NCBI GenBank assembly: GCA_964019425.1 | Contig: OZ025794.1 | Coordinates: 1,054,001-1,118,000 of the forward strand | From: Flectonema sp. DT1601 | Lineage: Eukaryota | Direction: 5' to 3' | DNA: 64,000 nt | Shown here: positions 1-59,644 of the stretch, piece after piece | Layout: every line of letters starts with the position of its first letter | Numbering within the stretch: position 1 is the stretch's first letter | Position numbers and translations under genes: made by a program | The notes under the pieces: generated by a model | Databases searched by the model: none | Seen by the model: the letters and a program-made list of their open reading frames with translations, nothing else | What the model was told of the DNA's origin: nothing

Positions 1-1031
1 CGTATCAGAGTTAACTAAAACAAATGTTAAACTGACGAAAGGTAATGTTAGTATGTTAGTATGTTAGTATAGGCAAACACTCTGCAGACGACGTTGAGGA
101 CCTTTACACATCTCTTTTTCCGTGTTGTCATTCAGTGCAGTACGGAATCGAGTTATTCAATAATTCCCCTTGTGATGATTAAATATAGTTAGTATATAAA
201 GCACTAGAGGAGGTTAATTAACACTTTGATGTCCTACGGCTTAAGCGGGGAATGTATCACCAAAATAGAAGCGACTATTTTAATATTTTTTATAAGATTT
301 CTATCTGTTGAAGGACTTCCCTGAGAATGAATTATGGATTAGACTCAAACACACTTAGAATAGTGTGACAAAAAAAAAAAAAAATAATAATAACAATTAA
401 AAAAAAAAAAAAAAAAAAAAAAAATAGATTCGCAAAAGTAAAACAGTTGAATAATGAAAACTGATGACATTATTAATTTTTTTTTTTTTTTTTTGGCTGA
501 ACATTGGCATTAGTTGTGGTAATAGCCTTGTACAGTAGAAGAAAAAGGCGAAAAAAAGGGAGACGATACAAAACAGTCACGCTCGGCAAGCAACAAAACG
601 TGATTGCAATTTTTTTTTTTTCCTCTGTTCTTTTTTTTTTTTTTTTTTCATTTTTTTGGTTGCCGGTTAACAATAACTGCTAGTAGAACAATTTCTCTGT
701 TTTTTTTGTTTTGTTTTTTTTCCCAATTGTGTTCTTATTACTTTGGATCATTTAGTAGATTTAGTTACGCAACCAGACCGTCTTTGTTTTGTCCAATTGT
801 TGCCAACTAGACAACAGCCGCTCAAAATAACGGATTTTTTTGTTACTGCACACAAAATAGGGGGAGAAACCTGTGGCAGCAGAGTCGGAAGCTACCCTCC
901 AGCCCACCTTTTTCAAGTTCGAAAGTAAAATTGGGAGGTTTCCGAATCGTCAAAAGCCCCCGAGATTTTCTTTTTTTTTTCAATTCTGCTTTTCCATGAT
1001 TGAGAAAAGAACTCTAAGCTTAACACAAAAA

Positions 1032-1967
1032 CTATAACTTCGACTCGTTGAAATTCGCACTGGTTCTTGTTTCATCCTTCGAGAGGGTGCGGACATCACC
1101 TCTCTTTAGAGAAACCTTAATTTGAGTTTTAGGAGCGAGTGCTCTGATAGGTTCAACATTAGGATCAAAACGGTAGACTGCTAAATCTTTTTTAGTAAAC
1201 CCAAATTCTTCAATAAGCAGCTCATCATCGATGTTTTGAGTACCGTTGAGTGTTGACCCAACAATTGCTAAAACACAGTCTGCAAGAATTGTTGCTTTTC
1301 TCCAATTCTTAGTCGATCCTAATTTGAAGTTCTTTGAAGCCTGACTCTCAACAACAGTTGCTGGCCACAATGAGTTACCAGTTATGTTATTCTTAGCACC
1401 CTCAGCTGCAGCACCCATAGCCACCATTGTCATTCCAAACTTGCTGATATTATAAGCGGTGAATCCCTGGTACCTTTCGTAATCTGTTTGAATAGGAGGC
1501 GACATCGTAATTACTCTTCCGAATTTGTTTTTTCTCATGTATGGAAGAGCTAATTTAGTGAGAATGAAACTACCTCTCGTATTAATCCCTGTTATCAAGT
1601 CGTACTTGTTAATAGGTGTGTCCTCTATGTCGTGCCACCAAAGTGCTGAGGCATTATTAATAACTATGTCAATTCTACCAAAGTGAGCTACGGTATCTTC
1701 AACACATTTTTCGATAGTTTTGGCATCTCTCATGTCTACTTTGCAAGGGAGAGCATCAACTCCAAGTTGCTTCATCTCTTCAGCGACACTGAAGATCGTT
1801 CCTGGTAGATTCTTTGTCGGTTCTGTAGTCTTTGCAGCAATCACAATATTACATCCGCACTTAGCCAAAGCAATTGCGCATTCCCTTCCGATTCCTCGGG
1901 TGCTTCCGGAAATAATCGCAACCTTTCCCTTTAAATCTGGGTTGTTGAGTTTCGGAGAAGACGCCAT
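1032..1967 (-). CDS. HSDL2: HSDL2-like short-chain dehydrogenase/reductase (SDR domain only), probably peroxisomal/glycosomal
   Basis: Rossmann motif SGSTRGIG, HSDL2-family signature IAAKTTEPTKNLPGTI, NNAS motif, catalytic YNISK (YxxxK), C-terminal SKL (PTS1). First ATG (MASSPK) is at 1967; the ORF-track start at 2012 is a GTG. Intronless. Confidence 0.88.
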   Translation of the reverse strand: MASSPKLNNPDLKGKVAIISGSTRGIGRECAIALAKCGCNIVIAAKTTEPTKNLPGTIFSVAEEMKQLGVDALPCKVDMRDAKTIEKCVEDTVAHFGRIDIVINNASALWWHDIEDTPINKYDLITGINTRGSFILTKLALPYMRKNKFGRVITMSPPIQTDYERYQGFTAYNISKFGMTMVAMGAAAEGAKNNITGNSLWPATVVESQASKNFKLGSTKNWRKATILADCVLAIVGSTLNGTQNIDDELLIEEFGFTKKDLAVYRFDPNVEPIRALAPKTQIKVSLKRGDVRTLSKDETRTSANFNESKL

Positions 1968-2191
1968 TTTAGTAGAAGACAGAAGACCTGAATAAATTAA
2001 TAAAACTAACACAGGATGACTGTTAATTATCCTATTCTCAATAGTATGGTACTTATGGAGGGTAACTTAAATACCGGAATTGAATATAAAATAACTTCAA
2101 ACTGTTTGCTAACCAAAACTTTAAAAAGATTAATAGTTGGTATCGACAAAACCCCTGCTGCTGGACTACCTACACTACTGTACCCCATTAC

Positions 2192-2400
2192 AGTTAAAGT
2201 TGCCTCCAGACACATAAGTGTGGTATACGCTATGTTTTTTTTATAAATACAGTAAATAGATAAAGAAGTCTATTACTTTGCATATTGCTCATCACCGATA
2301 CAGCAAACTACTGAGCATCGAGTTAACTCTGTAAAAGTACGAGGCAACACCAATATCGCACATCTTATGGTCATACGCTGTGAAAGTAGAAAAAAAGAAA
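2192..2400. repeat. ~205-bp dispersed repeat, copy 1
   Basis: Near-identical direct copy at 4018-4227; internal 8-bp inverted repeat GTTGCCTC...GAGGCAAC. Confidence 0.9.
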
Positions 2401-3425
2401 CTTTGACAATGTAAAAACAGTAACAATCTTAGGGTATTAAAAACAAAATTAATATCAAGTACTTGACTTAAAAATATTTGTAGTTATTAATCTGATGGTC
2501 GGGGGGAAGCAATTAGATGTTACTAATCAATGAAAATAACAACAAGTAATTCTCACAGCACATAGAAAAAGGATAGGAAAAGAGAGAGGGGAAAAAAGAG
2601 AAGGAAAAAAAAAAAAGAAAAGATGAAATAATCTATTGTAAGCTGTTTTTTTTGTAGTGAGAGAGACTCAACTCAACTAACAATGTTGACAATTACACCA
2701 GAAGTATAATTCGTTTGTGTCACGAAACCGTTTAAACTGATAAAGCTAGTGTGCTGCCAACATTCTTTTTCGCTCTTACAATACTTGTTAAATGCAAAAA
2801 AAAAAAACAAGGAACCAGCTGGTACCGATCAAGATTGGGTAAATGTAAATAAGATTTATTTATTTTTTTTTTGTTCTGTATGACTACTACAAGGTTTCAG
2901 GATCACAATGAGTTGTCCCACTGGGGCTGCTAGCGCCGCTGTCAATAGTTTGTTCCTCTGAGTCGGTCTCAGCTACGACAGCAAACAAATCACTTAAAGC
3001 ATGGTATCTGTTTCCACCTGTGTATTAATCGTGTTCTACTTGGAGAAGAACTATAACAGTTTCTAATCAACATTCCACATTCACCAAAAGTTGACAAATA
3101 ATTTTTTAAAAAAAAAAAAAAAAAAAAGAGAGAGAGAGAGAAAGAAACCAATTTCAGTACATACGTCTACCGTTTTTGTTCTTGATTATGTCCATCACGG
3201 TTTCCAGCTCCTTCAGTGAATCGTGCATGGTGATAAAGAAAAGTAATAACCTGAAGAGATATGAAGCTATACATCAGTTGACGGGGTCATCACAAATAAA
3301 CAAATTAATCAAATGAGATAATCTCAGATTAGATTAATAGTATAAATTTTAATTTTAGTATAGAAAAGTGAGAATAAAAAATATTCATTTCTGCAGTTTC
3401 CTAACATCAAAGGGTAATAGAATAT

Positions 3426-3485
3426 GTAGTTTCAGGAGCCTTAATCTTATACTACTTGTCCCTTTTTTAGGCCTTCATCAGTAAG
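3426..3485 (-). ncRNA. Putative hammerhead ribozyme, non-circularly permuted (copy B)
   Basis: Minus strand reads CUUA-CUGAUGA-AGGCCU-AAAAAAGGGACAA-GUAG-UA-UAAG-AUUA-AGGCUCCU-GAAA-CUAC. Stem I CUUA/UAAG; stem II AGG(CCU)/(AGG)CU-CCU; stem III CUAC/GUAG; GUA cleavage triplet, predicted cut between 3450 and 3449. Confidence 0.72.
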
Positions 3486-4017
3486 TTCTAAGGGACTTCA
3501 TTCTATGTTGAAGTTGCTATCGTTCTCAGACAAGATAGATAAATAAATCAATAAATCGTAAAGACATCAATTAAATAATGGGTTTGGTTTCAGTTACCAA
3601 GTAGATATAATGTATTTATAAATAACATGGAGCATAAGAGTCTGACAAGTGTTTTTTTTTTTTTTTTTTTTTTTTCCGCCGAAGCGAAGATGCCAGGAAG
3701 AAACCACATGCTAGGACAGTTCTTTTACTTTTCTTTGTCTGCTGGAATTCTATCTGAGAAAACCGGTATTTTTTTTTGTAGCTGGTGGGACATGTGTACA
3801 AGAACCTCACAGTCCCCATAAGAAGGATGACACCGTCCTGGAAAAAGGACGTATAACGCCTAAGACCTAAGCGACGAGCGCAGAGTTCTACAGGTTGCTA
3901 TTTGTGTACTTTGAGTTGTTTGGATTGATCTATCAGAATCGAAACGATTACTCATTGCAGAATTGCATTCACTTGTGCATACCAACCAAGTGAGGTGGAC
4001 GAGAACTATGTTCTGAA

Positions 4018-4227
4018 AGTTAAAGTTGCCTCCAGACACATAAGTGTGGTATACGCTATGTTTTTTTTATAAATACAGTAAATAGATAAAGAAGTCTATT
4101 ACTTTGCATATTGCTCATCACCGATACAGCAAACTACTGAGCATCGGGTTAACTCTGTAAAACTACGAGGCAACACCAATATCGCACCTCTTATGGTCAT
4201 ACGCTGTGAAAGTAGAAAAAAGGAAAT
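4018..4227. repeat. ~205-bp dispersed repeat, copy 2
   Basis: Direct repeat of 2192-2400 with a few substitutions. Confidence 0.9.
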
Positions 4228-5708
4228 TACAATAACGTTAGCAATACGCTACAACAAGATTCCTAAAAACAGATTTTTCTTTTCAATTTCTTTTTTTTTT
4301 TTTTCTTCTTCTTCTTTTCTTTTCACGTTTCTTTCTTTTTTTCCTTTCATTCTACATTATTTCTGCAAAGAGAGGAAATGCCGGGATGGTTGCTGCAGAA
4401 TACTTTAAAGGTAGCCGAAAAGCGAGTTCAGAAAGGAAAGTGCCATTGTTGCATCAATTTTCAACACCTCAGCAGCCGAGCAACCGGTTATAAGGAAAAT
4501 GTGTGCAAACATAGTGCAGAAACACGACCTTGTGTGAGAAAATGAAACGAAGGTCCCGATGTCGCAAAAAAAAGAAATCGACAATCACTATAATATGCAC
4601 ATAATTAGAATGGGGATAAGGAATTGGAATGAGATTGCGAACGAGCTTTTTTTTTTCTTTTCTTCTTTTTTTTTTCTTTTCGTAAGCCTTTATTTCCCCT
4701 CCCCCACATTTCGAATTTTCGAGAAAAGGAATCACGGCAAGAGCAACAATTCGAAAGCATGGGCAAAAAAAGAAGAGGGAAACTAAATCAAGACAGTTTG
4801 CAGACAGCTCCGACCGATCGTCTCCCTTCCGGGACAAGATAATTGAACTGAAGCTGTTTCGAATATGATATAAAAGTGCTCGCAGATTGCGTTTGGTAAC
4901 TACACGGTGCTAAGTCTTTCCATAAAACTCGCATTTGCGTAGCTTTACAGAAAATCACCATGAGATTTCCACGCACGGGTTATCAGGGGAGAGAGAGGGG
5001 GGAGGTAAAAAAACAACTAAACGCCAACCCATTATTGGTGTTGCATATGATTTGCAGTGCTAAGAAGTGTTAAGCAATGACAGCAGTCGAATGGTAAAAA
5101 AAAAGAGCTGAAGCTCCTTAACCACGAGACGCACAAGAATAAATATCTTACATGCTTAATCAAGAACTCAAAGTGTTGCGTGAATGGTATTGTCTGGGGA
5201 ACACTTCCTTTCCAGGAAAAGTGCAAGAAAAAGTCAATCACGTGAAGAACCATGAGTCTCTTCAAATAGACTACAGAATAATTTCTAAGTATGTGGCCCA
5301 AAACCATAAACAGTTTTGAGTTTCGCGAACACCATCACACATAATAAAACAGGCTCGGGTGAGAGGACGGAAAGACTGCGAAGAACCTTCCTCCACCATC
5401 CTGATTTCATGTTAGCCGAATTCCACAAACAAAAAAAGACGTCAAAAAGATAGAAAAAACGAAATTTTCGTCTTTTTCCCACATACAGAGAGCATTCTTT
5501 TTTTCTTTCACTCCTTCCAGGAACAAAGCTGCAGACTAACCCAAGTGGCTGGGGTTGGGACCTTCGTTCATTTCAAGAAGAAGGACATCAAAAAAGGGTC
5601 ATGATGGGGGATAAATACTCTTCTGACATAAATAAAGTGCAGACCCCACATCCTTCGTTGAGGCAACGTCTTTAATCAAAAAAAAACTCCTACGGTTTTC
5701 TTACATTA

Positions 5709-5747
<39 letters not shown>

Positions 5748-5748
5748 C

Positions 5749-5751
5749 CGT

Positions 5752-5785
<34 letters not shown>

Positions 5786-5963
5786 CTTTTTTTTTTTTTT
5801 TTCCTTCTTCTCCTTCCTGTTCCATGAATCGCACAGGGAAAAAAAACAGTATAGAGAAATAGAAAATCTTTTTAGCAAGTTGATAGCATCACCCAAATGC
5901 AGGCGACACAATAATTCCACAACACAAAACAACACAACACAACACAACACAACGCAACACAAC
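5749..5963. repeat. Microsatellites (TTG)n and (CACAA)n downstream of the giant gene
   Basis: Visible TTG run at about 5749-5784 and CACAA run at about 5920-5963, among long poly-T tracts. Confidence 0.85.
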
Positions 5964-6325
5964 ATAAGCTGTTTACGGCGGTTCCCCCTGGGAGGTGCAG
6001 GTACAGAGCTTTTCAAATGGAAAACACGAAAACAAAATTAAAAAAACGTAAACAAAGCAGTGGCAAAAACCCTCTCTTCCATTCTAGAAGGTGAAGGGGT
6101 GGGGGGGGGATGCCAAGGAGATGGATGGGATCAATGATTGGTTTCCTTTTCTGTTTCATTCAATTATTCCCTGCCATGATTCCATGGCGATTACATTAGG
6201 GAATCATATAATAGGTTTCACCTTTTCTTTTTTTTTTTTTCTTCCTTTTGTTTTTAAATTTTCCTTCTTTTCTGAAGTATGGTTCGGTCGGAATCGTTCA
6301 CCCGCGTGAACGATACGGAAAGGCA

Positions 6326-6360
<35 letters not shown>

Positions 6361-6420
6361 GGGTGGTTTTTGGAGGTGAGAATGGGAGGGGAGGATCAAA
6401 AAATGACACTGAGAATGAGT

Positions 6421-9400
6421 CTAGTTCAATTCCGTGTCTGGGTTGTCGGTACCCGACTGCGATGGGTAGGTGCATGATTCAACAATGAAGTAAGTGAGAG
6501 TGAATCTGTGGTTTCCTCTGTTGGCGTTGTCAGCGATATCTGGGGACCAGATCTCAAATTCAACACTGAGAGTTGAAGAATCCCATGATGTGGTGATGTC
6601 CATTTGATCAGAAGTGTCTCCCTTTCCTGAACCGATAACGTTCACACCAGTGACATATGGGGCTCTCTTCAAGTAGATAACTCTCTCTCCATCTTCTTGT
6701 CTCTCAGTTTCAGTTCTGTCTCTACCTGGAGCTGAAGTTCTACGTCTTGCAACACGAGAGATAACACCAGAGTCCTCAGATCTTGGCATGTCCATAATGA
6801 AGAATCCAGATTGGATACGAACGTGAGAATGGTCACCCAAAGTGATTTGTGGTGACACAAACTTAGTACCAAAATGACGAGGTCTCATAACTCTCGATGA
6901 TCTAAAAGTGTAGTCCTGGATCATCCAACGAATCTCAAGAGTGTCTCCTTCGAAGTCCTGAAGGTCTTCGAACATGGCGACGGCGCAGAAGTTGATCGCT
7001 GGAACGCTGCGGACGACGCTGACTTCACAGTCCTCACCGGCCCATCCGAACTTGCAGTTACCACAGTCGGCACCATCCCAGTTACCCTTACACTCACATC
7101 CCTTTGCTCTGCAAACACCGTTACCGTTGCACATGACGTCGATGGTTCTTCCATTACCAGTTGGAACGGAAGTTGCTCCCGGGCATTCACCAGTTCTGTT
7201 TAGACTTGAGACAGAGAATCCGAGAATGGCAACCGAGTCAATCTGTGAAACTCTGTTGCTGTTTGGCTGAATAACCAACTTGATCACCTTCGTCTTCCAC
7301 TGCACGTTAACAGCAGAGTCTGGGTCTCCTGCACGCAACAACACCGGAGTGCTTGGGTGTGCAAACGGGTTGGCGTTTGAAGCAGGTGTGTAGATACGAG
7401 AGATGGATTCGGTGTAGAATTCCTGTTTTTTTTTGTTCTCTTTTGGTTTCCGAATATTTTTTTCATCCAAAAGAAATATCCTAAATTAGAACTAAAATAT
7501 CAACGACGATATTGATTTCGTTAAATCCCTGAAACAACTACAACAACTAACTAAAAACACATACAGGGTTCTCTCTGCTCCAAATGAGTTCGAAGTTCTG
7601 CGGATTGGTGTTAACGGAAGACGCTTGGACGGTGGTGGCGGTGGCAGCAGCGCTTGCGGTTTCCGGAGTGACGTTCTCAAGTACCTGAGCGTTGACGTTT
7701 GTTGGTCTTCTGACTGCGGCCGCGGCTCCGACAACACCAGTGGCACCCACGACATCGTTTCCTGGAGCACCTCCACCTGGGGAAGCATCAGCACCCTTCT
7801 GCGCTGGCTGAGCCCAGATGGACACGACGGAACCTGGCTCAGCGTTCTCGAATACATAAACCTGTTGTTTAGTTGTTTGCTACTTTTCTGCCTTCTTTTT
7901 TTTTTTCCTCTCACGTTCCTCCACACATTCTAATATAATAATAAAAGACATCAGTTCACTAAAGTAAATAACAACATACCTGAGACAAGTAGACTGGCTC
8001 CTCGTACTCCAACACTACGTACTGAAGCGCATTCTGCCAGTCAACCTTTCTGGTTGGCTGTCTGCATGGTCCCTTGTAAGTTCTTCTACGGTCGCAGTAG
8101 TACTGTTTTTGTTGTGGTGCGATTGTTTTTTTTTTTTTTTTTTTTTTTTCCATTTCTGACAAAGTAGAAAACTCCCCGACCGCGGTGTTCACTCACTCTT
8201 TCCACAAAACGATGATATAACAAATAAACATACCTGAACTGGTTCCCAAGCAGCGCTTCTGTGTGGTTCATCCTGCACGTAGTAGTCTTCAGCAGCATCT
8301 GGTTCACCGACAAGGTTGTGAATGTTTCCTGGAATGATTTGAGTAGAGAAGTCGAGAACTCTAATTGGGAATTGAATAGCTCTTCTTTCAACAGTGAGGG
8401 GGGCGTTCACCGTCTGTGGAGGAGCTCCTCTGGTTGCTGGTGCCGGTGGCGCCAAGCGAGCATCAATCCTTGTGCACAGCGGACCAGAGTATCCCCTGAA
8501 GCAGCGGTCACACTTTTCTCCTGCCCAGAATCCGGTTTCGAGGTTGGCGTCACAGCGGCACGCACCATTTCCGTTGCAAACTCCGTTGTTTCCGCAGTCG
8601 AACTTTCTGTCAATTCCATCGTTCACCAGTCCGCAGGTACGGAGCGATCCGTCGTTCTCAGCAGCGATGGCCTCAACGCAAGTCATACACGAACCACAGT
8701 CATTTCTATCATCAGTTCCAACATCAACCCATCCACAAACACCGAGGTTGTTGCATGTCTGACATGGACTGTCACACGCAGTGTTACAACAGATTCCATC
8801 AACGCAGTGTCCCGAAGCACACTGACGGTCAATCGAACATGGAGCAGCAGGTGCTCTCAACTGGATACAGAACTTGTTGAAACAAGCGAATCCTTCAGAG
8901 CAGTCATCGAAGATCTCACAAGTAATCTGACAGGTGTCCTGAGCCAATTCGTAGTCAGGAACTCCTCTAATTGAACCACATCTGTATGGATGGCAGTCAG
9001 AGTGCCTGTTGCAAACAATACTGCTCTTAATGACCGGTGCCGGTGGACTGCGAGGAGGAACAAAGGCATATCTGGCTGCTGGGTCGCCGTTCAAAGCGAG
9101 TGGAACTCTCAAGCACCTCCATGGGTTACCAAAGAACTCCTGTCCCTCGGTGTAGCAGGTTGGTGAGATTGCAGGAGGAGCCTGATGAGCGTGGTTAATC
9201 ACGTCAGTCGAAACACACTTACCCATGCTACACGTGTAGAAGTACAAACAGTGACCGTCTTCAGTACAGTCAGTTCTGCAAACGGCGGTTGAAAGTGGCG
9301 AGAGAGTAATGTGTTTTCCACATGCGTATGGAGTACAGTAGTCGTAATCCTTCGTGCTGCATGATTGTGGAGATCCAGCAGACCCCGTAACACAGCTTCC

Positions 9401-39170: not shown

Positions 39171-39655
39171 TTAAAGGTTTCCTTTTCTCTTGCTCTCTTG
39201 GTTTATATTAATTATAGTTTGTTTGTTTTTTTTAATAATTTATGTATCTGATGTGAAGTAAGGGTGATAGTTTGACAATGTAGAAAACAATAAGAAATTT
39301 TATAATACTGAAATAAGTAATAAAATTAAACTGAAAAAACGACAGAAGCTTAAGCTTTCATTTTAGAATATGTATCTGATGCGAAGGGGGTAACTTGAGA
39401 CTAATATTAAAGGATGGAAAGCAACTTGAAACTGGCTAAAACTAAAGTGGCGTCCGACCAATTCCGGTTGCCATGTAAAAAAGACCAACAGTCAGTATCG
39501 ACAACACATATGTGCTGTCTGGGGGGTTAACTGTTTGATTTTGTACGTAAAATACAAATGTTTTGTATCATAAAAAACATAACGATAATTTAACATTAGT
39601 TCTGAGATACAGTGACTAGGTGTGATGCTTAACTTAGCCTTTTAAAGTAACTATT

Positions 39656-39711
39656 AGGTTTCGAGAGTAATCCATATACCTCTTACCTCTATTCTCTCAT
39701 CATCAGTATGG
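39656..39711 (-). ncRNA. Putative hammerhead ribozyme, non-circularly permuted (copy A, in the Penelope-like element 3' region)
   Basis: Minus strand reads CCAUA-CUGAUGA-U-GAGAG-AAUAGAGGUAAG-AGG-UA-UAUGG-AUUA-CUCUC-GAAA-CCU. Stem I CCAUA/UAUGG; stem II GAGAG/CUCUC; stem III CCU/AGG; GUA triplet, predicted cut between 39677 and 39676. About 170 nt downstream of the ORF2 stop on the same strand. Confidence 0.75.
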
Positions 39712-39883
39712 TGTAGAAGTAAGTCAATCATCTGTTGTGACTGAAGCATCTTAGTTAGCAAGACTAGGATGTAGTTACTTTGTTATAATGTTTATAAAAA
39801 AAACATTCTTCTTGTTATTACTAGTTCGTAGCGCACTACTAGTGGAGCACTCTTCTACAATAAATGTAGAAAGTATAAGATGA

Positions 39884-41764
39884 TTAATTATCAAGATCTG
39901 ATGCATAATCTGATACATCTTCAAAATCATGTAAAACAGGAGTCGAAGGAGTATCTAAGATGTTCGTAACGTTCTCTTTATCTTCACTTTTAGGTGTGTT
40001 GATATCTTCTTGTTTGGCTCGTTTCTTTCGTACATCTTTTCTTAGTAGCGGCTGCATAGGACTTTCAGAATTTAATCTCTTTGTATATTTCGACTTCTCC
40101 TTCTTTTTTGCTGAAGCGACTAGCATCTTATTAACCTCAACTTTGATCTTGCGTTTACTTTTAGATCCGTTCTTATTCTCTAACTTTTTTCTCTTGTCCT
40201 TGTCCATGTATCCATTAAATTCGATTATTGGAATCGGACTTTCAGAATTTAATCTTTTGCGGGTATCTCTTTTTGGTGTAGTTAGTGTACTATCCTCTTT
40301 CTCAAGAATTTGTGTTACTAGCTTTGCACCTCTTTTGATAGACCGCACGTTTAGTTTCTTCTTCTCCTTGATGACCATTGTGATCTTGTTGGAGCCATCA
40401 CTGTTGTTAACTTCATACGTTGTATTATCATGATCCATGTAATATGGAAAGTCCTTTGAGGCTCTGAATATTGCGCATATGTGGACATGATCAATAATTG
40501 ATTTTTTAGTCTTGAAGCAATATTTACATTTCCTCTTGATATGCGTTGTATCTTTGTAGGATGGTTCTGACGAGGATGTTGTAGTTGGCACGTCAGTCAT
40601 TGAGTTCTCAACTATTTCTGTTGCCTTTTCTAGTTCAACATGCGACGTTGTCTCATCTTTCTTACTTCCGGTTTCATCTTTAAGTTGGGGAAGTATCTTA
40701 CTAGATTCTTCATTGATAGGTTCCGATGTTTTATCCTTAATCTGCGTATGTGATTGCGTAATGACTTTAGTTTTAGGGATAATTGACTCGTGAGATCCAT
40801 TATTGAAAGCTTTCTTTTTGGATTGCTTCATAGCATGTTTATGAGACAGTATATTGGACTTTTTGTTACGTTTTGAACAAGGTTCAAGGGTATCACTTAA
40901 ACTTTCCGGCATTGAAGTTACGGGGTTCATACTATCTTCTGTGTCTATGACAACAGTGTTATTTCGTGCTGCTGTTTTCGGAGTTGTAACTTTTAACGAT
41001 GGTGCAGTGTATGTTGTAACAATCTTGTTAGGTTGCCTATTCATTGCTAAATCATAAATAAGCTCCCGATTGTGTCCATTCCAACAAGTTAGTGGTTCTT
41101 GTGGGACAATCTTGTTGGTTGTCGGAGTTTTGATTTTGCCTCCCGACTTTTGTTTTACCGGTGTTTCAAACACATGTCGATGTTCAGGTGTTTCTAAACA
41201 CGGTGGTGATATAGCCTCAGTCGCAATGAGACTATTGTTTCTGACCTCCATATGAACATTAGTTTGTGGTGGTGAAGCAAGTTCGTTTGCGTTGATACTG
41301 TTGTTGTCGATAACTATAGGCATATGAATACCAGTCTGCGGTGGTGAAATATACTCGAATGTCTCGAGACTGTTGTTGTTAATTACCGTATGAACATCCG
41401 TATGTGGTGGTGCAATAGGCTCAATTACGTTGAGATCATTGTTATTGATCAACATATGTACATCCGTTTGTGGTGGTGATATCTCGTTGTAGCTATTGGT
41501 ATCGACATCGGTAAGGCAAGTTTTATGAATTGAGTCGTTACTCTTTTTCTTGGCACTTATAAGAGTATCCACATGTGGTGGTGGGATGATGTCAATATCA
41601 TATAGACTTCTGTTATTGACGGCAATCACCGTGTCAATATCAATATCCATCCGAGTTGGTGAAGTAACATCTGTTGGACTCTTAGTATCGGAGGATAGTT
41701 GGCGGTGAGATGGCAACAATGCTGTCCCCGTTGTGATAGACTTGTGGGGGTGAGATGGCAGCAA
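39884..41764 (-). CDS. PLE ORF2 / frameshifted continuation of ORF1: ISPPQT-type repeats, C2HC zinc-finger-like motif, Lys-rich tail
   Basis: 626-aa open frame overlapping the ORF1 end in the +1 frame. The ISPP repeats begun in ORF1 continue here; CKYC-x9-H-x3-C at 40475-40528; duplicated KRLNSESP. Confidence 0.62.
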   Translation of the reverse strand: MLPSHPHKSITTGTALLPSHRQLSSDTKSPTDVTSPTRMDIDIDTVIAVNNRSLYDIDIIPPPHVDTLISAKKKSNDSIHKTCLTDVDTNSYNEISPPQTDVHMLINNNDLNVIEPIAPPHTDVHTVINNNSLETFEYISPPQTGIHMPIVIDNNSINANELASPPQTNVHMEVRNNSLIATEAISPPCLETPEHRHVFETPVKQKSGGKIKTPTTNKIVPQEPLTCWNGHNRELIYDLAMNRQPNKIVTTYTAPSLKVTTPKTAARNNTVVIDTEDSMNPVTSMPESLSDTLEPCSKRNKKSNILSHKHAMKQSKKKAFNNGSHESIIPKTKVITQSHTQIKDKTSEPINEESSKILPQLKDETGSKKDETTSHVELEKATEIVENSMTDVPTTTSSSEPSYKDTTHIKRKCKYCFKTKKSIIDHVHICAIFRASKDFPYYMDHDNTTYEVNNSDGSNKITMVIKEKKKLNVRSIKRGAKLVTQILEKEDSTLTTPKRDTRKRLNSESPIPIIEFNGYMDKDKRKKLENKNGSKSKRKIKVEVNKMLVASAKKKEKSKYTKRLNSESPMQPLLRKDVRKKRAKQEDINTPKSEDKENVTNILDTPSTPVLHDFEDVSDYASDLDN

Positions 41765-44700
41765 TTGTATTTACTTTGTATATTCTCGGAGGTGATACCG
41801 CCATGATTTGACACCCAGATGAGCTGTGATATAGGTTACGAAAGTTTGGGATGGTTGGTATAATCTGCGGTGTTGCAATTATAAGTGTTGTATTTTCGTA
41901 ATTAAATTGTGTATCCGTATTATAAAGTGGACCAGTTAGAATAGTGGTCATTGGTGATTCCATATGTACATCGGTATTTGGTGTAGCATATTCCATATGA
42001 CATAAGTTAGTATTCTGATTGGTGTTCAAGATATGATTGGGAACCTTAGTGAGCTTTGTGGTTCCACTTACAAAATCATTTGACTTTTGATCTTCAGAAG
42101 TTATGTAATCAGTGATGTCGAAGTGAGTATTGGGTTTAGAAGCCTTGTTAGCAACACCTATTGCTTCCTTATCGTCCAAATCCACATCTTGCTGACCTAT
42201 TTTTGGATCTAGGTGTGTATCTATCTCTGGATTTTGAATGACTTCCTTTGGATCTTGAATGACTTCCTTTGGATCTTGAATGACTTTCTTTGGATCTTGA
42301 ATGACTTTCTTTGGATCTTGAATGACTTCCTTTGGATCTTGAATGACTTCCTTTGGATCTTGAATGACTTCCTTTGGATCTTGAATGACTTCCTTTGGAT
42401 CTTGAATGACTTTCTTTGGATCTTGAATGACTTCCTTTGGATCTTGAATGACTTCCTTTGGATCTTGAATGACTTCCTTTGGATCTTGAATGACTTCCTT
42501 TGGATCTTGAATGACTTCCTTTGGATCTTGAATGACTTCCTTTGGATCTTGAATGACTTTCTTTGGATCTTGAATGACTTCCTTTGGATCTTGAATGACT
42601 TCCTTTGGATCTTGAATGACTTTCTTTGGATCTTGAATGACTTCCTTTGGATCTTGAATGACTTTCTTTGGATCTTGAATGACTTCCTTTGGTTCTTGAA
42701 TGACTTCCTTCGGTTCTTGAATGACTTTCTTTGGTTCTTGAAGGACTTCCTTATGAGTAGTATTTTCATTCGAAGATCTCAAATCCAATGGATCTGCGGC
42801 TTTAGCTGTTGTAGAGATATCATCCTCTTCAAATTTCTGTAACATCTCGTATAACAGTGCTGTGTCATCGTTATCATTCGTCTTTTGACTAAGAGTATCT
42901 TTCTCTTGTTTGTTTTCCATGTGGGGCTCCATTGTTGGATAGTCGAGGTTCGGAAATTGGAGTTTCTCCATAGGATTGTTTTTTGTAGGGCAGAATGCGA
43001 AGTGATAGTCAAATGTTTCCAAAGGATATATCCTGGCAATGTCGTTCCACGTTTCATAACTTGGAGTGTGTTGAATGATATCATATCCTGCATACTCTGT
43101 ATCTTTTCCGATAAATAAGATATAGTGAGTGTATGCTAATCTACGTGTAATTATAACGAATGGAAAGCGTTTTAGGTTTTGTTCTTTGAGTATATTGTTG
43201 ACTTTATCTAAATCTTCTGCGCTGGTACAATGGTGTATTTCTAAGGACAGATGAATCTTAATTGTCTCATATATGACTAATTGGTGAAACCATCCATCAG
43301 GATTGAATTGGAACATTTCAACCAATCCTAACCACTTCATTTCTTGTGTTGCCAACTCATCTTGAATCTTAAAGACTTTAGATATCTGAATTCTCTCGAT
43401 GTTCAGATAATCAGCCATAAAATTAATGGTGGCCCAACCACACTCACCGCTGTTAAGGCCTTCAGCTGGTTTAGTGTGCATAGAAATAGGAAACCTTTTA
43501 TCGATCGAGATATCCCATTCAGGACCTCTATCATTCTTCATAACTGGTTTTTCAGTTTGAGATTTTTCCGTTTCATCTTCTTGCGTTTCTGTAGTATTAT
43601 CTGTCATAACTACATCAGTATCTGGTGTGTTAGGAGTTGACTTCCCTTCTGTTGTAACTTCCGCCGATTTTCCAGGCGTGTCAACCTTGAGGAAGATTTT
43701 TTGAATATCACTTTCCGTATATTTACTTGTAATTGGAAAGTAATAACCTCCATTAGTACGACCAACAACCATGTGACATTCGTGATTCACATGTTTGTTA
43801 ATTATTTCACGGGTTGTCTTACCCTGGTCGTATGATAGAATACTGATGGGAACAGGTAGTATTTTGTCGAAGTCTTTGCAAAATTTGGTTACTTTAAATA
43901 TCCCATTGCGATATTTAATATCCAAAGCATCAATCTGTGTCTCAGTGTTCTTGTTTATTGCGGTGGAACATATTAGACATTGATCTGGATTGTTAGTGAT
44001 TGAGTGACTTGCAATCCGGAATGCAGTAACCATGGTGTTATTACATTTTTTGAGTTTTGCATACCCAACGTTCTTATCGAGTAACATGTTATAAATGTCA
44101 TCTCGTCCATTCAGTTTGTAGTACTGTTGGATTGTTTTCTTCTCAGAGGTGACGGGTAGTTCCTTGTCATATCTCCAATTTGTCTTGAAAAAGAATTGCT
44201 GGAGGTTATCTCTCTGTTTCGGAAAATCCCAGTATGTACTAAGAATGAAATCTTTGTATTGTGGGAAGAGGCTCTTCTTCGAGTACCCTCGGCTGCGTAG
44301 CCTGTAAATCACCTTTTCGATTTCCAAGTATAAGTCGAAGTCATTGTTGATATTGGTTGCTGCTCTGTACAAGGCTCCTTTCAATATGCCCGGACCAAGG
44401 CTTCTTGGTGCGTTTGATGTCGAGCTTGTGTATTTGATGGGTTGAAAATTGAACAGATTTTCTTTGTCCCATATTGACAGACGAATGAATGGATGTCCTC
44501 TTGGTCTTTCTTCAAATCTTACTCTCATTCCTAGGAAAACTATGTCATTGCGTCCAAGTGACGTATCTGTGTATGACATTTGATATTCAGCTTGCGGAGG
44601 TGGAGTAGGTTCATTCTTACTAAAGATTAGAAAGTCATCAATATATCTGAAGATTATCCTGTCATTAGCAATACTTAAACCATTGCTATGGATGATGTTG

Positions 44701-45263
44701 TCAATCCAGTTCTTTTCGATACCAAAGCAGTACAGATTAGCAATGTGAGGAGAGCATTGAGAACCCATTGGAATACCATGACATTGCCTTAACATATGGT
44801 CACCATTTTTAATATAAGAATTAGATAGTATTACATTCAGTAGTTCCTTGATCTCCTCTATGTTGTAAGCAACTTGCACATCTTCGTTAAATTCGTTTGC
44901 CAAGTAGAAATCTTTACCAATTCGACTTCGTTTATCTCTAACTATCAAATTGTCTCCAATGTATTCTTCGACTAATGTATTAATAACAGCTTTAATTTTT
45001 GTATGTGGTAAGTTGGTGTACATATCTGAGAAGTCAAAAGTGCTAACTCTCATTTCTTGAAGAGAGGAGTAGTTACTTTTAATGTACTGAGCAACTTCAT
45101 CAACATTATCCACAATGAAGTATTTTCTGATTCCTGTTGTATCAGATTTCTCTGTTTCGACTTTTTTAACTATAGACATAAATGTTTTCATGATTGAGGC
45201 GATCGGCAGGTGGAGGTGTTCACGATTTTTCACTTTGCTACACGAAAATTCACGATTTTTCAC
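41682..45263 (-). CDS. PLE ORF1 (N-terminally truncated): reverse transcriptase + thumb + Josephin-like protease + KEVIQDP repeat
   Basis: RT motifs STFDFSDMYTNLPH (~45030), QCHGIPMGSQCSPHIANLY (~44770), FRYIDD (YIDD 44634-44645), VFLGMRV, PLE-type thumb GALYRAATNIN...LRSRGY. The first ~20 codons come from unrelated flanking DNA. Confidence 0.82.
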   Translation of the reverse strand: MKNREFSCSKVKNREHLHLPIASIMKTFMSIVKKVETEKSDTTGIRKYFIVDNVDEVAQYIKSNYSSLQEMRVSTFDFSDMYTNLPHTKIKAVINTLVEEYIGDNLIVRDKRSRIGKDFYLANEFNEDVQVAYNIEEIKELLNVILSNSYIKNGDHMLRQCHGIPMGSQCSPHIANLYCFGIEKNWIDNIIHSNGLSIANDRIIFRYIDDFLIFSKNEPTPPPQAEYQMSYTDTSLGRNDIVFLGMRVRFEERPRGHPFIRLSIWDKENLFNFQPIKYTSSTSNAPRSLGPGILKGALYRAATNINNDFDLYLEIEKVIYRLRSRGYSKKSLFPQYKDFILSTYWDFPKQRDNLQQFFFKTNWRYDKELPVTSEKKTIQQYYKLNGRDDIYNMLLDKNVGYAKLKKCNNTMVTAFRIASHSITNNPDQCLICSTAINKNTETQIDALDIKYRNGIFKVTKFCKDFDKILPVPISILSYDQGKTTREIINKHVNHECHMVVGRTNGGYYFPITSKYTESDIQKIFLKVDTPGKSAEVTTEGKSTPNTPDTDVVMTDNTTETQEDETEKSQTEKPVMKNDRGPEWDISIDKRFPISMHTKPAEGLNSGECGWATINFMADYLNIERIQISKVFKIQDELATQEMKWLGLVEMFQFNPDGWFHQLVIYETIKIHLSLEIHHCTSAEDLDKVNNILKEQNLKRFPFVIITRRLAYTHYILFIGKDTEYAGYDIIQHTPSYETWNDIARIYPLETFDYHFAFCPTKNNPMEKLQFPNLDYPTMEPHMENKQEKDTLSQKTNDNDDTALLYEMLQKFEEDDISTTAKAADPLDLRSSNENTTHKEVLQEPKKVIQEPKEVIQEPKEVIQDPKKVIQDPKEVIQDPKKVIQDPKEVIQDPKEVIQDPKKVIQDPKEVIQDPKEVIQDPKEVIQDPKEVIQDPKEVIQDPKEVIQDPKKVIQDPKEVIQDPKEVIQDPKEVIQDPKEVIQDPKKVIQDPKKVIQDPKEVIQDPKEVIQNPEIDTHLDPKIGQQDVDLDDKEAIGVANKASKPNTHFDITDYITSEDQKSNDFVSGTTKLTKVPNHILNTNQNTNLCHMEYATPNTDVHMESPMTTILTGPLYNTDTQFNYENTTLIIATPQIIPTIPNFRNLYHSSSGCQIMAVSPPRIYKVNTIAAISPPQVYHNGDSIVAISPPTILRY
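42228..42752 (-). repeat. In-frame 21-bp minisatellite, 25 copies, encoding K(E/K)VIQ(D/E)P
   Basis: Unit GGATCTTGAATGACTT(C/T)CTTT; 525 bp = 25 x 21. Confidence 0.97.
43000..43480 (-). other. Josephin (ataxin-3-like) cysteine protease domain
   Basis: ECGWATIN (Cys 43440-43442), DGWFHQLVIYETI, THYILFIGKDTEYAGYD (His 43125-43127, Asp 15 residues later) match the order and spacing of ataxin-3 LCAQHCLN / SGFFSIQVISNAL / HWF...FNLN. Confidence 0.68.
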
Positions 45264-45362: not shown

Positions 45363-46081
45363 GATATCCAGATGGTACCGTTGGTGCTGGTGTGCTGTGC
45401 GATGTCAAACCTGTTCAGTTTGCCATACGTCATGTCACTTTGACAACTAAATGGGCATCGCTTGTGCCCAGTGACCCATCACCCTTCCTGACCATCGCTT
45501 GTGGTGAGGTTCCGGACTTTGGACCGGCGCATCGCGTGTGCGGTGGGTTTAATCACTGAGGGGCTCATTCTCGTTCATTGCCTCCTCTTTTCGCTGAGCA
45601 GTTTTTTCTTGTGCAACTTTCCTGGCAGCAGCATTTTCTGCTGCTTTCGCTGCTTTCGCTTGGGTCAGTGTGGCGGACTGCTGGGGCACCGGGAGGGAGA
45701 GGGGGTCACGCAACTTTTGCTTTGTGGGGAGCTCCAGCGCAAAGCATTCAACAACAGAGAAAATGAATGCCCCGCGCTGGGACTTGGTTGGGGGGTTAGG
45801 TAGGGATGGTGCGTCCACCGGGATGATGCTGCCATCAGGCTTGGTGAGCATGGGGTCATCGGGGACATCGCTCTTCAGCTTAGAGACCTGAATGTGGTTC
45901 ACATGGGAGAGGGCGTGGTTGACCTGCCTATTGACTTCCAGCAGGCGGGCGTGGTGAGGGGAGACTGTGTCACCGCAATAGCAGCAACGAAAAATGCCCT
46001 TTCCCCCCAAGGGTTCCAGCATGTAGAACCATCTACCTGGAAGCTCGGTATCGAGCAATGCAAAAATCTTTTCCCAATAAT

Positions 46082-47361
46082 AGACCACCAATGTTGTGCG
46101 TTGATAGGCAAGGTGACCAACCTTGACATTCTTTCTTTTCTCTCCTGTTGTGACAAACACAAAATACACACACAGCTTACAGTGTGTTCTTTGTGTATGT
46201 TTTCTTCAGGTGTGAGTAGTTTTTTTGTTCTTGCTCTTCAGGGAGGGCCTTAGCCAAAAGCTAACAGTCCAAATCTCACCTGGTAAACTCAACTCAGTCT
46301 TTGTCAGTTTTGGCATCAAACCTGTAATGGTTACATTAACTACCATTTCAACAGGTTATTTACTGAAATATTTGTTCTAAAAGTTGCTAAGTATTTCTCA
46401 CTTAGAAATTTTTTATTTTTTTATTTTCAGCTTAATCAGCTACAAATTGTTTCTACTAAGTGTTTCTCACTTAGATTTTTTTTTTGCTTTTCAGCTCCTT
46501 AAAAGCTGCTAAGTGTTTCTGCTAAGTGTTTCTCACTTAGAATTTTATTGTTATGTTCGTTTTCTATCCCCTCTTCTATCCCTTTTGTTCAAAAAAAGCG
46601 ATGAGAAATTTCTCTCATTCATGCTAAGATGCACTCTGAACTTTGATTTTTTGATCTGAGTGTGAGGGAATGACCTGTTAGTGCATTGGGCATAAGCTGG
46701 GCTGCAGTTTAGATGTCTTAGGTGTTAATAGGGGGTTCCTCTTAGCATTTTTCTTTGTTCCCACCTTATGATTTTCTTGAAGAAAAAAAATAGAAGTCAT
46801 AATGGTGCTTCCCTCTGGAAGGGTTGTAAGCCATGGTGTCCAACTAAATTAAAGGACAAGTCTGGGATAATCCCTGCCAGAGGGGCGAGTATTCTACCAT
46901 GGTTGAAATACTCTGGCAACTGATCTTCAATTTTATGTTGTTTGTTAGCTGCTGGTGTATCTTGATTATGTGTTGATACTTGCATTTTTTTATTTGTAAT
47001 CTTCTATTACAATTCTCTTTCTGTTCTGGTCTGTTACTTCATTTGTCTTGTTTAACTTCAGTTATATCCATTTTACTTTTTATTGTTTCCCATCTACTTT
47101 TTATTTTCTATTAGTTCTGGTCAGAAACTCCTGGGCAGCAAGAAGGAAAGCAGTTTAGTACTTCTGGGTGTTTGGCATCACCCCCCATAGTGAGCAAGTA
47201 CAACAGGTAGCATTGGTAGTCTGTTGATCCTGAGTGATCCCAGCTACAGTTTTGTTTTTCTTTCTTTTTTTTAGAAGAAGATCAGGACATCCAAGCACTG
47301 CTGGATAGTTGCTGAATGCAGGGCCTGCCTGTGGCATTATAATAACAGGCTAAGTCATTTG
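46082..47361 (-). repeat. Inverted, circularly permuted copy of the 1.3-kb repeat unit
   Basis: Reverse complement of the 49.6-55.2 kb unit (same 60-aa and 62-aa ORFs on the minus strand); spans the unit-unit junction at about 46295. Confidence 0.92.
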
Positions 47362-48172
47362 ACAATGTTATCATTGTTTTTTTTATCGATCGACTTTGTC
47401 GACTAATTTCTATTTTCCGTCCTGGTCAAGACGCTAAACTGATTATTTTTTTCTTTAAAAAATAAATAAAAAGAATAAAAAAAAAAAAAAAAAATGAATA
47501 AACAATGTTATCATTGTTTCTTATCGATCGACTTTGTCGACTAATTTCTATTTTCCGTCCTGGTCAAGACGCTAAACTGATTGTTTTTTCTTTTAAAAAA
47601 TAAATAAAAGATATAAAAAAAAAAAAAAAAAAAGAAATAAACAATGTTATCATTGTTTTTTTTTATCGATCGACTTTGTCGATTACTGTCTACTTTCCGT
47701 CCTGGTCAAGACGCTAAACTGATTGTTTTTTTTTAAAAATAAATAAAAAGAATATTAAAAAAAAAAAAAAAAAAAAATGAATAAACAATGTTATCATTGT
47801 TTCTTATCGATCGACTTTGTCGACTAATTTCTATTTTCCGTCCTGGTCAGGACGCTAAACTGATTGTTTTTTCTTTAAAAAATAAATAAAAAGATAAAAA
47901 AAAAAAAAAAAAAAGGAATAAACAATGTTATCATTGTTTTTTTTATCGATCGACTATGTCGATTACTTTCTATTTTCCGTCCTGGTCAGGACGCTAAACT
48001 GATTGTTTTTTCTTTAAAAAATAAATAAAAAGTTAAAAAAAAAAAAAAAAAAGGAATAAACAATGTTATCATTGTTTTTTTTTTATCGATCGACTATGTC
48101 GATTACTTTCTATTTTCTGTCCTGGTCAAGACGCTAAACTGATTGTTTTTTCTTTAAAATAATTAAAAGGAA

Positions 48173-48203
<31 letters not shown>

Positions 48204-48478
48204 GAATAAACAATGTTATCATTGTTTTTTTTTCTATCGATCGACTATGTCGATTAATTTCTATTTTCCGTCCTGATCGAGACGCTAAACTGATTGTTTC
48301 CTTTTTTTTTAAATAATAAATAAAAAATAAAAAAATAAAAAAATAAAAAAAAAGAGCATCTCCCTGCTATCCCTCATATCCCCACAATAATATTATACCT
48401 TTTCATTTTCTCTTTCCTTTTCTGGTCTTTTTTTTTTTTTTTTTTCCTTTTTCATACAACGTTTTTTTATTTATATAT
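47362..48478. repeat. ~140-bp hairpin-rich satellite (7 units) plus conserved ~125-bp tail ending in (TA)n
   Basis: Units start at about 47362, 47502, 47641, 47785, 47922, 48060 and 48210. The tail GAGCATCTCCCTGCTATCCC... recurs at about 61796 and 62854. Confidence 0.93.
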
Positions 48479-48488
48479 CATACTTGTA

Positions 48489-48642
48489 CCCCTTTAAAGG
48501 GGGCAAAATAAAGGGGAAATTAAAGGGCTTTTAATGCCCTTTAATTTCCGTAATTCCAAAATAAAGGGGAAATAAAGGGGAAATAAGCAGAATAAAGGGG
48601 GGTGGGAAAGCCCCTTTATTTCCGCTTTATTTATTAAATCCC
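48489..48642. repeat. Palindrome-rich segment built from ATAAAGGG(G) sub-repeats
   Basis: Perfect palindrome CCCCTTTAAAGGGG (48489-48502); 14-bp inverted repeat GGAAATTAAAGGGC/GCCCTTTAATTTCC (48515-48549); further AAATAAAGGGG / CCCCTTTATTT copies. Confidence 0.75.
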
Positions 48643-48669
48643 AAGGCACCCACCACGCTGCGTCATCCT

Positions 48670-55229: not shown

Positions 55230-55230
55230 G

Positions 55231-55420
55231 TAAGGCCGCCGTCACCGTGAAGCTGCTACGAATAACAGTTCGAACGTCAGCATTCACATTAGCAAGCAAC
55301 CAGGCTTGAGAACCCAATCATTACGTAACATGTAACAACCAGGGATAATTCTCAATAAGGCCGCCGTCACCGTGAAGCTGCTACGAACATAACCCAACAA
55401 ACTAGCAATTCCACTCACTT
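55231..55420. repeat. 154-bp repeat family (right part, resumes after the 1302-bp array)
   Basis: TAAGGCCGCCGTCACCGTGAAGCTGCTACGAA resumes at 55231 and about 55337 and ends with ATAACCCAACAAACTAGCAATTCC, as at about 49030. Confidence 0.9.
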
Positions 55421-59500: not shown

Positions 59501-59644
59501 AATGCTAGTTAATGTAACCATTACAGGTTTGATGCCAATACTGACAAAGACTGAGTTGAGTTTACCAGGTGAGATTTGGACTGTTAGCTTTTGGCTAAGG
59601 CCCTCCCTGAAGAGCAAGAACAAAAAAACTACTCACACCTGAAG
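56594..59644. repeat. Second cluster of 1.3-kb-family units (longer variants and truncated copies)
   Basis: Units start at about 56594, 57963 (58-bp stub), 58019 (about 167 extra bp at 58633-58840) and 59555 (90-bp stub). These carry three CTAAGTGAGA sub-repeats rather than two. Confidence 0.93.

What the first reader, a model, noticed from the sequence alone, without database searches (positions are those of the whole stretch)
3426..3485. Second, sequence-divergent copy of the same rearranged hammerhead provides covariation support
Seen: 36 kb away on the same strand is CUUA-CUGAUGA-AGGCCU-(13 nt)-GUAG-UA-UAAG-AUUA-AGGCUCCU-GAAA-CUAC. It has the same A-C-B order, the same GUA triplet, the same AUUA linker after stem I and a similar purine-rich 12-13-nt linker. 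All three stems differ from copy A yet still pair (I CUUA/UAAG vs CCAUA/UAUGG; III CUAC/GUAG vs CCU/AGG). Inference: compensatory change in every helix makes chance unlikely and implies a family of such ribozymes in this genome; this copy may be the relic 3' end of another PLE-type element.
Basis: partly seen in the sequence, partly recalled or inferred. Interest (0 to 1): 0.88.

Follow-up and report, generated by a model that had tools for sequence, protein, structure and literature searches.

The report
Scrambled hammerhead ribozyme in diplonemid retroelements
This stretch carries every part of a hammerhead self-cutting RNA in a rare scrambled order that is in print from only two near-identical soil-DNA sequences; here it sits in the genome of a single-celled eukaryote, where it likely came from, and likely cuts the RNA of, Penelope-type jumping genes, though cutting is untested.

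Summary
The motif is real. Minus strand 3496-3426 reads core - cut site - GAAA, the 'type-CSG' non-circular hammerhead of Eckert et al. 2023 (two similar soil-metagenome sequences, both cleaving in vitro). The order is therefore known, not new. With four helices, 0 of 1000 shuffled windows reach score 17 (B 18.0, A 22.5). Against copy A, 5 of 10 comparable pairs change on both sides and none break. What is new is the setting: the host is a diplonemid; copy A ends a Naiad/Chlamys-like Penelope-type element; a probable RNA run holds a third, B-like copy; a metagenome scan gave two more (one behind a protease tail like that of related elements, one in a ~975-bp repeat unit). B itself has no reverse-transcriptase remnant; it lies between 209-bp direct repeats, so 'relic 3' end' is inferred. 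B has the weakest stem I of the four and cutting is untested. This scan has already noted a type-CSG and other rearranged hammerheads in retroelements of other genomes.

The parts
3426..3496 (-). Copy B: type-CSG hammerhead, four helices
3490..3496 (-).
   Evidence: pair probabilities 0.8-1.0 for 3496-3491
3475..3485 (-). Block C: stem I strand (3485-3482) and core CUGAUGA (3481-3475)
3469..3474 (-). 5' strand of stem II (closing pair A-U instead of the usual G-C)
3458..3464 (-).
3446..3455 (-). Block S: stem III strand (3455-3452), U-A at 3451-3450, predicted cut 3450|3449, stem I strand (3449-3446)
   Evidence: the cut site is predicted by analogy
3442..3445 (-). AUUA linker tying stem I to stem II; the same four letters follow stem I in copy A and overlap the linker of both published CSG sequences
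3426..3441 (-). Block G: stem II strand (3441-3434, 2-nt bulge), GAAA (3433-3430), stem III strand (3429-3426)
2401..4017 (-). 1,617-bp stretch without recognisable coding remnant that holds copy B; patches of it (2397-2492, 3444-3490, 3718-3757, 3808-3881) match diverged contigs of run X1
2192..2400 (.). 209-bp direct repeat, copy 1 (4 differences from copy 2)
4018..4226 (.). 209-bp direct repeat, copy 2 (spacing 1,826 bp)
2402..2412 (-). 11-nt motif that ends the stretch 1 nt before the repeat; also at 39271 behind copy A and at 47358; candidate shared 3' end
   Evidence: role inferred
39656..39723 (-). Copy A: type-CSG hammerhead with a 10-bp stem I-II helix, core 178 nt behind the stop of the element's second frame; predicted cut 39677|39676
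41682..45263 (-). Penelope-type reverse transcriptase frame, lacking its N-terminal part (matches to relatives begin near 45215), with a probable cysteine-protease domain behind it
   Evidence: the protease is by eye and weak
39884..41764 (-). Second frame (626 aa, no Pfam match) that overlaps the end of the first; probably one frame broken by a frameshift
   Evidence: the frameshift is inferred

Best explanation
Copy B has the sequence and four helices of a type-CSG (non-circularly permuted) hammerhead, likely cuts its own transcript between 3450 and 3449, and likely reached this site as part of a non-coding piece of, or a passenger on, a Penelope-like retroelement family of a diplonemid. How it would work: the helix 3496-3490/3464-3458 and stem III fold first as ordinary hairpin stems (predicted); stems I and II then close as two pseudoknots; the stem I-II helix on one side and the 4-nt AUUA linker on the other hold stems I and II side by side, doing the job of the loop I-loop II contact of ordinary hammerheads (by analogy with PMC10085705); the standard core then cleaves after GUA, leaving a 2',3'-cyclic phosphate and a 5'-OH (established hammerhead chemistry, recalled). 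In the autonomous element (copy A) the cut would fall about 200 nt behind the stop codon and trim element RNA out of read-through or tandem transcripts, the role proposed for ordinary Penelope hammerheads (PMC4209133). Shown: sequence, helices, rarity, copy A's place behind a reverse transcriptase, host lineage, the 209-bp repeats. Inferred: cleavage, B's descent from such an element, the repeats as a target duplication, the role of the cut.
For: All core letters present and four helices; 0 of 1000 shuffled windows reach score 17. Same block order, same extra helix and similar short linkers as the two published CSG RNAs, which cleave at the predicted site. B against A: 5 of 10 comparable pairs changed on both sides, 5 unchanged, 0 broken. 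The fourth helix was not part of the search pattern, yet both metagenome hits with three good stems have it (2 of 79 loci; 34 and 39 of 2000 shuffles as good). Copy A lies behind a reverse transcriptase whose relatives include Diplonema papillatum proteins (4 of 10 clusters looked up); of 28 relatives scanned, 5 carry GIY-YIG ahead of the RT, 8 a USP protease and 3 Josephin. L178's ribozyme lies about 200 nt behind a USP tail that matches those RT-USP proteins to the last residues (33% over 55 aa). A third, B-like copy with a different upstream flank lies in run X1 and keeps the fourth helix despite indels in its 5' strand and in the A-run that leads into its 3' strand. The last 150 nt before the shared 11-nt motif align between A and B (3-4 of 200 shuffles as good), and in B the motif abuts the direct repeat.
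Against: No element protein remnant near B. B has the weakest stem I of the four (-0.8 kcal/mol against -3.0 to -5.9), an A-U closing pair and a bulge in stem II, and the nested fold pairs its stem I strand with the end of the core at probability 0.9 or more (the program cannot see pseudoknots). Published CSG RNAs are slow (0.004 and 0.026 per min). For an ordinary Penelope element the hammerhead was not needed for insertion in vitro and no reads ended at its cut (PMC11167929). The A/B 3' likeness is AT-rich, modest, and both places lie ahead of host genes with a pyrimidine tract and AG, so it may be a host splice-acceptor feature. L178 may be a chimeric contig (first 300 nt 58-69% GC) and holds no RT. 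The search pattern fixed some pairs (second pair of stem I, first of stem III), which therefore say nothing.
Confidence: 0.6

Rival explanations
1. The whole 2192-4226 stretch is 1.11 copies of a 1,826-nt non-autonomous, retrozyme-like unit copied from a circular or tandem RNA; the 209-bp repeat is terminal redundancy of the unit, not host target DNA.
For: Direct repeat with 4 differences in 209 bp and the ribozyme in mid-unit. L220 has the same layout: one CSG between repeats 974-980 bp apart at 93-97% identity. More-than-unit copying of circular RNA was proposed for Penelope elements (PMC4209133), and retrozymes as their non-autonomous derivatives (bioRxiv 10.64898/2026.07.22.740005, abstract).
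Against: X1 contigs that match 2397-2492 part from the window at 2397, so the repeat is not shared by those relatives; the repeat opens with a pyrimidine tract and CAG like a host splice acceptor; relatives in X1 match only in patches.
Confidence: 0.17
2. B is a genuine descendant of a CSG hammerhead that has decayed and no longer cleaves at a useful rate.
For: Weak stem I, A-U closing pair, bulged stem II and a competing nested fold; no coding remnant nearby.
Against: Core intact, no broken pair among the 10 compared; the third copy keeps the same stems and the fourth helix in a different flank, which is hard to get without selection.
Confidence: 0.14
3. The ribozyme now serves the host: it cuts read-through RNA between the giant leishmanolysin-like gene and the dehydrogenase gene, both on the same strand, whatever its origin.
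For: B lies on the sense strand between two host genes; a B-like copy is in a run that holds a spliced host transcript.
Against: The direct repeats are 98% identical, which points to a recent arrival; copy A and L178 are element-linked.
Confidence: 0.07
4. A chance match to a loose descriptor in AT-rich DNA.
For: On three helices alone, 16 of 300 shuffled windows give a CSG hit; Rfam finds no hammerhead here, though its models cannot hold this order.
Against: 0 of 1000 with four helices; shared linker and extra helix with copy A and the published CSG; a related copy in X1.
Confidence: 0.02

Closest known systems
Type-CSG hammerhead ribozymes CSG-1 and CSG-2 (Eckert, Friedrich, Weinberg, Weinberg 2023, PMC10085705; main text parts 1-6 of 8 and supplement passages read)
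   Same: [quoted passage not shown]
   Different: Published pair: two soil-metagenome DNA contigs differing at 8 positions, no host or gene context, GUC triplet, 6-bp stem I. B: diplonemid genome, GUA triplet, 4-bp stem I, A-U closing pair and 2-nt bulge in stem II, 4 unpaired letters between the extra helix and stem I; sister copy behind a retroelement reverse transcriptase.
Type-SGC hammerheads (HRIMA-1 and variants; same paper)
   Same: Non-circular order, short stem I-II linker plus a stem I-II helix.
   Different: Different block order; 583 sequences, almost all from metatranscriptomes of circular-RNA agents.
Hammerheads of Penelope-like elements (Cervera and de la Pena 2014, PMC4209133, passages; Frangieh et al. 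2024, PMC11167929, passages)
   Same: Carried by Penelope-like elements; proposed to process tandem or read-through RNA.
   Different: Those have the ordinary circular orders, often minimal and dimer-dependent, and lie in the terminal repeats; B and A are self-contained four-helix monomers in a non-circular order, and B is not inside its flanking repeat.
Naiad/Chlamys Penelope-like elements (Craig et al. 2021, PMC8557442; passages, section 9 and supplement rows read)
   Same: The window's RT has relatives with GIY-YIG ahead of the RT and C-terminal cysteine proteases, as in Chlamys-1_cBra; the paper flags eight Naiad families with the two core halves 35-50 nt apart, the spacing seen here (37-41 nt).
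   Different: The paper found no canonical hammerhead in most of these elements and, in what I read, names no diplonemid family; the window's copy lacks the endonuclease and the front of the RT; the eight flagged families were not examined here.

Membership tests
Type-CSG hammerhead ribozyme | Blocks in the 5'-3' order C (CUGAnGA), S (cleavage site), G (GAAA), each uninterrupted | tested here: met
   no other order fits
Type-CSG hammerhead ribozyme | All conserved core nucleotides (CUGAnGA, GAAA, U-H, A15.1-U16.1, C15.2-G16.2) | tested here: met
   the stem II closing pair is A-U rather than G-C
Type-CSG hammerhead ribozyme | Stems I, II and III can form | tested here: met
   4, 3(+3) and 4 bp; stem I is weak
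Type-CSG hammerhead ribozyme | [quoted passage not shown] | tested here: met
   7 bp, 0 of 2000 shuffles as good; same place as in the published structure line
Type-CSG hammerhead ribozyme | Compensatory change in the helices | tested here: met
   pair table over four sequences set in register from the core; not a statistical covariation test, and MAFFT did not put the stems in register
Type-CSG hammerhead ribozyme | Site-specific self-cleavage lost in a core mutant | not testable with these tools
   needs an in vitro assay; only contigs, no raw reads, were available
Hammerhead types I, II, III (circular orders) | Three-way junction in a circular block order | tested here: not met
   no Rfam hammerhead match
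Naiad/Chlamys Penelope-like element (element of copy A) | RT most similar to Penelope-type RTs with GIY-YIG ahead of the RT | tested here: met
   5 of 28 relatives scanned carry GIY-YIG ahead of the RT match; P0003 likewise; no tree with named reference elements
Naiad/Chlamys Penelope-like element (element of copy A) | N-terminal GIY-YIG and CxC motif in the element itself | tested here: inconclusive
   the copy is cut short at its 5' end; relatives match only from about 45215
Penelope-like element remnant (region of copy B) | RT or other element-coded remnant beside the ribozyme | tested here: not met
Retrozyme-like non-autonomous unit (region of copy B) | Multi-copy non-coding unit in tandem or partial tandem, one hammerhead per unit | tested here: inconclusive
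   partial tandem present; relatives match only in patches; no genome to count in

The most novel reading that the evidence does not exclude
Type-CSG hammerheads are the native ribozymes of a diplonemid branch of Naiad/Chlamys-like retroelements and of their non-autonomous, retrozyme-like passengers: the doubly pseudoknotted fold cuts element RNA into units that are copied, possibly as circles, to give 1.1-unit insertions such as this one. That would give the orphan CSG permutation its biological home and supply the ribozyme reported missing from this clade.
Probability: 0.35. Interest if true: 0.8.

Novelty: new member of a known kind. Interest (0 to 1): 0.6.

Why it matters
Type CSG was accepted with reserve because it rested on two sequences differing at 8 positions, with no host and no role. 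B, A, L178 and L220 add four diverged members in which all four helices hold, and neither new contig name appears in that paper's supplement. They place the fold in a eukaryotic genome of known lineage and at the tail of Penelope-like elements of a clade reported to lack canonical hammerheads. That makes two questions directly testable with short transcripts: whether non-circular hammerheads work in cells, and whether the 'half-core' motifs of Naiad/Chlamys elements are such ribozymes. I found no paper on CSG beyond the 2023 one and none on diplonemid hammerheads; the library lacks most subscription papers.

Tried and rejected
Whole-genome copy count: no genome held. Rfam: no hammerhead match in the window, in 2150-4300 or in L178, L220, L264; expected for this order, so no evidence either way. 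Prokaryote genomes: 0 of 62. Metagenomes: 77 of 79 loci failed; L264/L225/L188 (score 16.5, one stem III pair) were rejected. The patterns were narrow, so these are not counts of CSG in those collections; the published CSG contigs were not returned. RT-based locus searches in viral contigs found nothing. Sequencing runs: one holder, no RNA holder listed; I read X1 as RNA from one spliced joint at 7859-7978. Its B-like contig stops at 3444, six letters past the predicted cut, and nothing was laid on 3426-3443; one study, contigs only, so this says nothing for or against cutting. A relaxed-core search found no third copy in the window. MAFFT did not align the stems, so the pair-counting tool was not used. 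Plain folding z-scores are unremarkable (-1.5 for B), as expected for pseudoknots. A Josephin assignment of the element's protease is unproven (no Pfam match; weak match). The protein atlas gave no answer. A dimer-type or type I/II/III reading was rejected because only the CSG order fits.

Full report
Observation. A descriptor that places the three hammerhead blocks in any of six orders gives two hits in the window, both strands counted: core at 3481 (copy B) and core at 39706 (copy A), both in the order core, cleavage site, GAAA. In 300 dinucleotide shuffles done in 1-kb blocks, a CSG hit appears in 16 windows and two hits in 2. Three helices alone would therefore leave B suggestive only.

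The missed helix. For B this duplex is -12.1 kcal/mol; 0 of 2000 shuffles of the 5' strand and 3 of 1515 neighbouring 16-mers do as well; for A, 3 of 2000 and 0 of 508. With four helices scored together, B has 18.0 and A 22.5; 1 of 1000 shuffled windows reaches 16 and none reaches 17. The score is my own and the cut-offs were read afterwards, but the helix is the one drawn for the published family, so it was not invented for this case.

What it is. Eckert et al. 2023 (PMC10085705; parts 1-6 of 8 and supplement passages read) name the six orders and report type CSG from two similar soil-metagenome DNA sequences that differ at 8 positions; both cleave at the predicted site, at 0.004 and 0.026 per minute; none came from a known organism, and the authors call the evidence weaker than for type SGC. 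[quoted passage not shown] B is thus a new member of a known, very rare kind. Set in register from the core, B and A share 10 comparable pairs: 5 are unchanged, 5 are changed on both sides (1 in stem I, 2 in II, 2 in III), none is broken; the fourth helix has a different sequence altogether. Because little else aligns between the copies, this is agreement with one fold and not a phylogenetic covariation test.

More members. One pattern scan of the metagenome collection gave 79 loci; 2 pass the four-helix filter at score 17 or more, L178 and L220. The pattern asked for no fourth helix, yet both have one (34 and 39 of 2000 shuffles as good). Neither contig name occurs in the 2023 supplement. In run X1 a 665-nt contig of depth 20 matches 3444-3490 with one other letter and a 2-letter gap; its loose end goes on as the window's 3492-3503 and then parts. 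I read this as a third, B-like copy at another locus of the same or a very close organism, with one U less in the 5' strand of the fourth helix and two A less in the linker, so that a 6-bp helix remains. X1 is probably RNA: it holds a joint that removes the GT-AG intron at 7860-7977, although the tool lists its kind as unknown.

Host and element. The neighbouring dehydrogenase's four best homologues are from Flectonema neradi (87%), Diplonema japonicum, D. ambulator and Lacrimia lanifica, so the host is a diplonemid. Copy A's core lies 178 nt behind the stop of a two-frame unit whose first frame is a reverse transcriptase. Its relatives (best 150 of 1828 listed) include D. papillatum proteins in 4 of 10 clusters looked up and an F. 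neradi protein. Of 28 relatives scanned, 5 have GIY-YIG ahead of the RT, 8 a USP protease, 3 Josephin. That layout is the Naiad/Chlamys branch of Penelope-like elements described in PMC8557442, which reports no canonical hammerheads in most of them but eight families with the core halves 35-50 nt apart; here the spacing is 37-41 nt. The window's element lacks the endonuclease and the front of the RT. L178's ribozyme lies about 200 nt behind a frame ending in a USP tail (Pfam E 2.8e-6) that matches the Diplonema RT-USP proteins up to the last residues (33% over 55 aa); solved host USPs match only weakly (best E 0.007, a different kind of search). L178 holds no RT and may be chimeric at its start. 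L220's ribozyme sits between repeats 974-980 bp apart, 93-97% alike.

B's own surroundings. B lies in a 1,617-bp stretch (2401-4017) between two 209-bp direct repeats with 4 differences. No element protein matches window 1-8200 and the three frames upstream are closed or meaningless. The stretch ends, one letter before the repeat, in an 11-nt motif that also stands 385 nt behind copy A and at 47358; the 150 nt before it align between A and B better than all but 3-4 of 200 shuffles, and at least four X1 contigs match 2397-2492. This fits a shared element end with a long target duplication, but the likeness is modest and could be a host splice-acceptor feature. The other reading is a 1,826-nt unit copied 1.11 times, as in L220.

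Mechanism. Predicted: the fourth helix and stem III form as nested stems (probabilities near 1), stems I and II close as pseudoknots, and the helix plus the AUUA tether replace the loop-loop contact of ordinary hammerheads; the core cuts after GUA at 3450|3449. In an autonomous element such a cut would trim element RNA from longer transcripts, as proposed for ordinary Penelope hammerheads (PMC4209133, passages). Against: B's stem I is the weakest of the four (-0.8 against -3.0 to -5.9 kcal/mol), stem II closes with A-U and has a bulge, and a nested alternative ties up the stem I strand; and for one Penelope element cleavage was not needed for insertion in vitro (PMC11167929, passages). My odds: real CSG-type motif 0.97; retroelement origin about 0.8; cleaves at a measurable rate about 0.75.

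Novelty. The order is in print; a search for 'type-CSG' returns only that paper, and searches on permuted hammerheads in retrotransposons and on diplonemid ribozymes returned no such report in their listings. New are four diverged members, a eukaryotic host of known lineage, and the tie to Penelope-like elements. The scan's own notes already hold a type-CSG in another genome and differently rearranged hammerheads in Naiad and Hero elements of animals; these are unchecked and were used as leads only. Verdict: real, new member of a known rare kind in a new setting; interest 0.6.

Noticed in passing
window 45472-45555 (-): Twister-P1-like RNA (Rfam RF03160, 31.1 bits, E 0.01, below the gathering score 67.2). 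By eye both pseudoknots differ from the consensus yet pair, and the cut would fall in the TAA stop of the frame 45549-46169. It lies about 260 nt ahead of the truncated RT, so a twister cut and copy A's cut would bracket a 5.9-kb RNA with ends that could be ligated into a circle (inference).
   Followed up: partly
window 45549-46169 (-): 206-aa frame with a CxxC...H...H pattern and no Pfam match or stored relative; its first 29 codons belong to the repeat of the next item.
   Followed up: partly
window 46082-64000: Arrays of a 1,302-bp unit (over four copies, 99.9% alike), an inverted copy at 46082-47361, about 140-bp tandem repeats with A-runs, and a 154-bp repeat; possibly a subtelomeric or element-junk region.
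   Followed up: no
window 8189-38530 (-): A 10,113-codon uninterrupted frame; the 4,843 codons scanned hold leishmanolysin (M8) and Kelch matches. It has small introns before it and spliced exons after it down to about 6421.
   Followed up: no
window 39522-39557 and 56189-56224: A 36-bp piece from behind copy A recurs (94%) inside the repeat region, without a ribozyme beside it.
   Followed up: partly
window 2402, 39271, 47358: The same 11-nt motif at three junction-like places; at 47358 it is formed across the border of two different repeats. Unexplained.
   Followed up: partly
window 3780-3890 (-): Hairpin-rich stretch ending in an A-run; an X1 contig matches 3808-3881 with 7 other letters. 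Folding z-score only -0.64, no Rfam match.
   Followed up: partly
proteins P0008, P0009, P0017 and their clusters: Diplonema papillatum proteins named kinesin-like, ubiquitin hydrolase or V-ATPase subunit by their source contain or cluster with Penelope-type RT, GIY-YIG or USP parts: probably an undescribed retroelement family inside host gene models.
   Followed up: partly
L220:749-822 (-): Strong type-CSG hammerhead (score 23) in a GC-rich unit of about 975 bp that repeats at both contig ends; retrozyme-like, host unknown.
   Followed up: partly
window 105-160 and 56373-56429: A 57-bp piece shared at 98% between the window's start and the repeat region.
   Followed up: no
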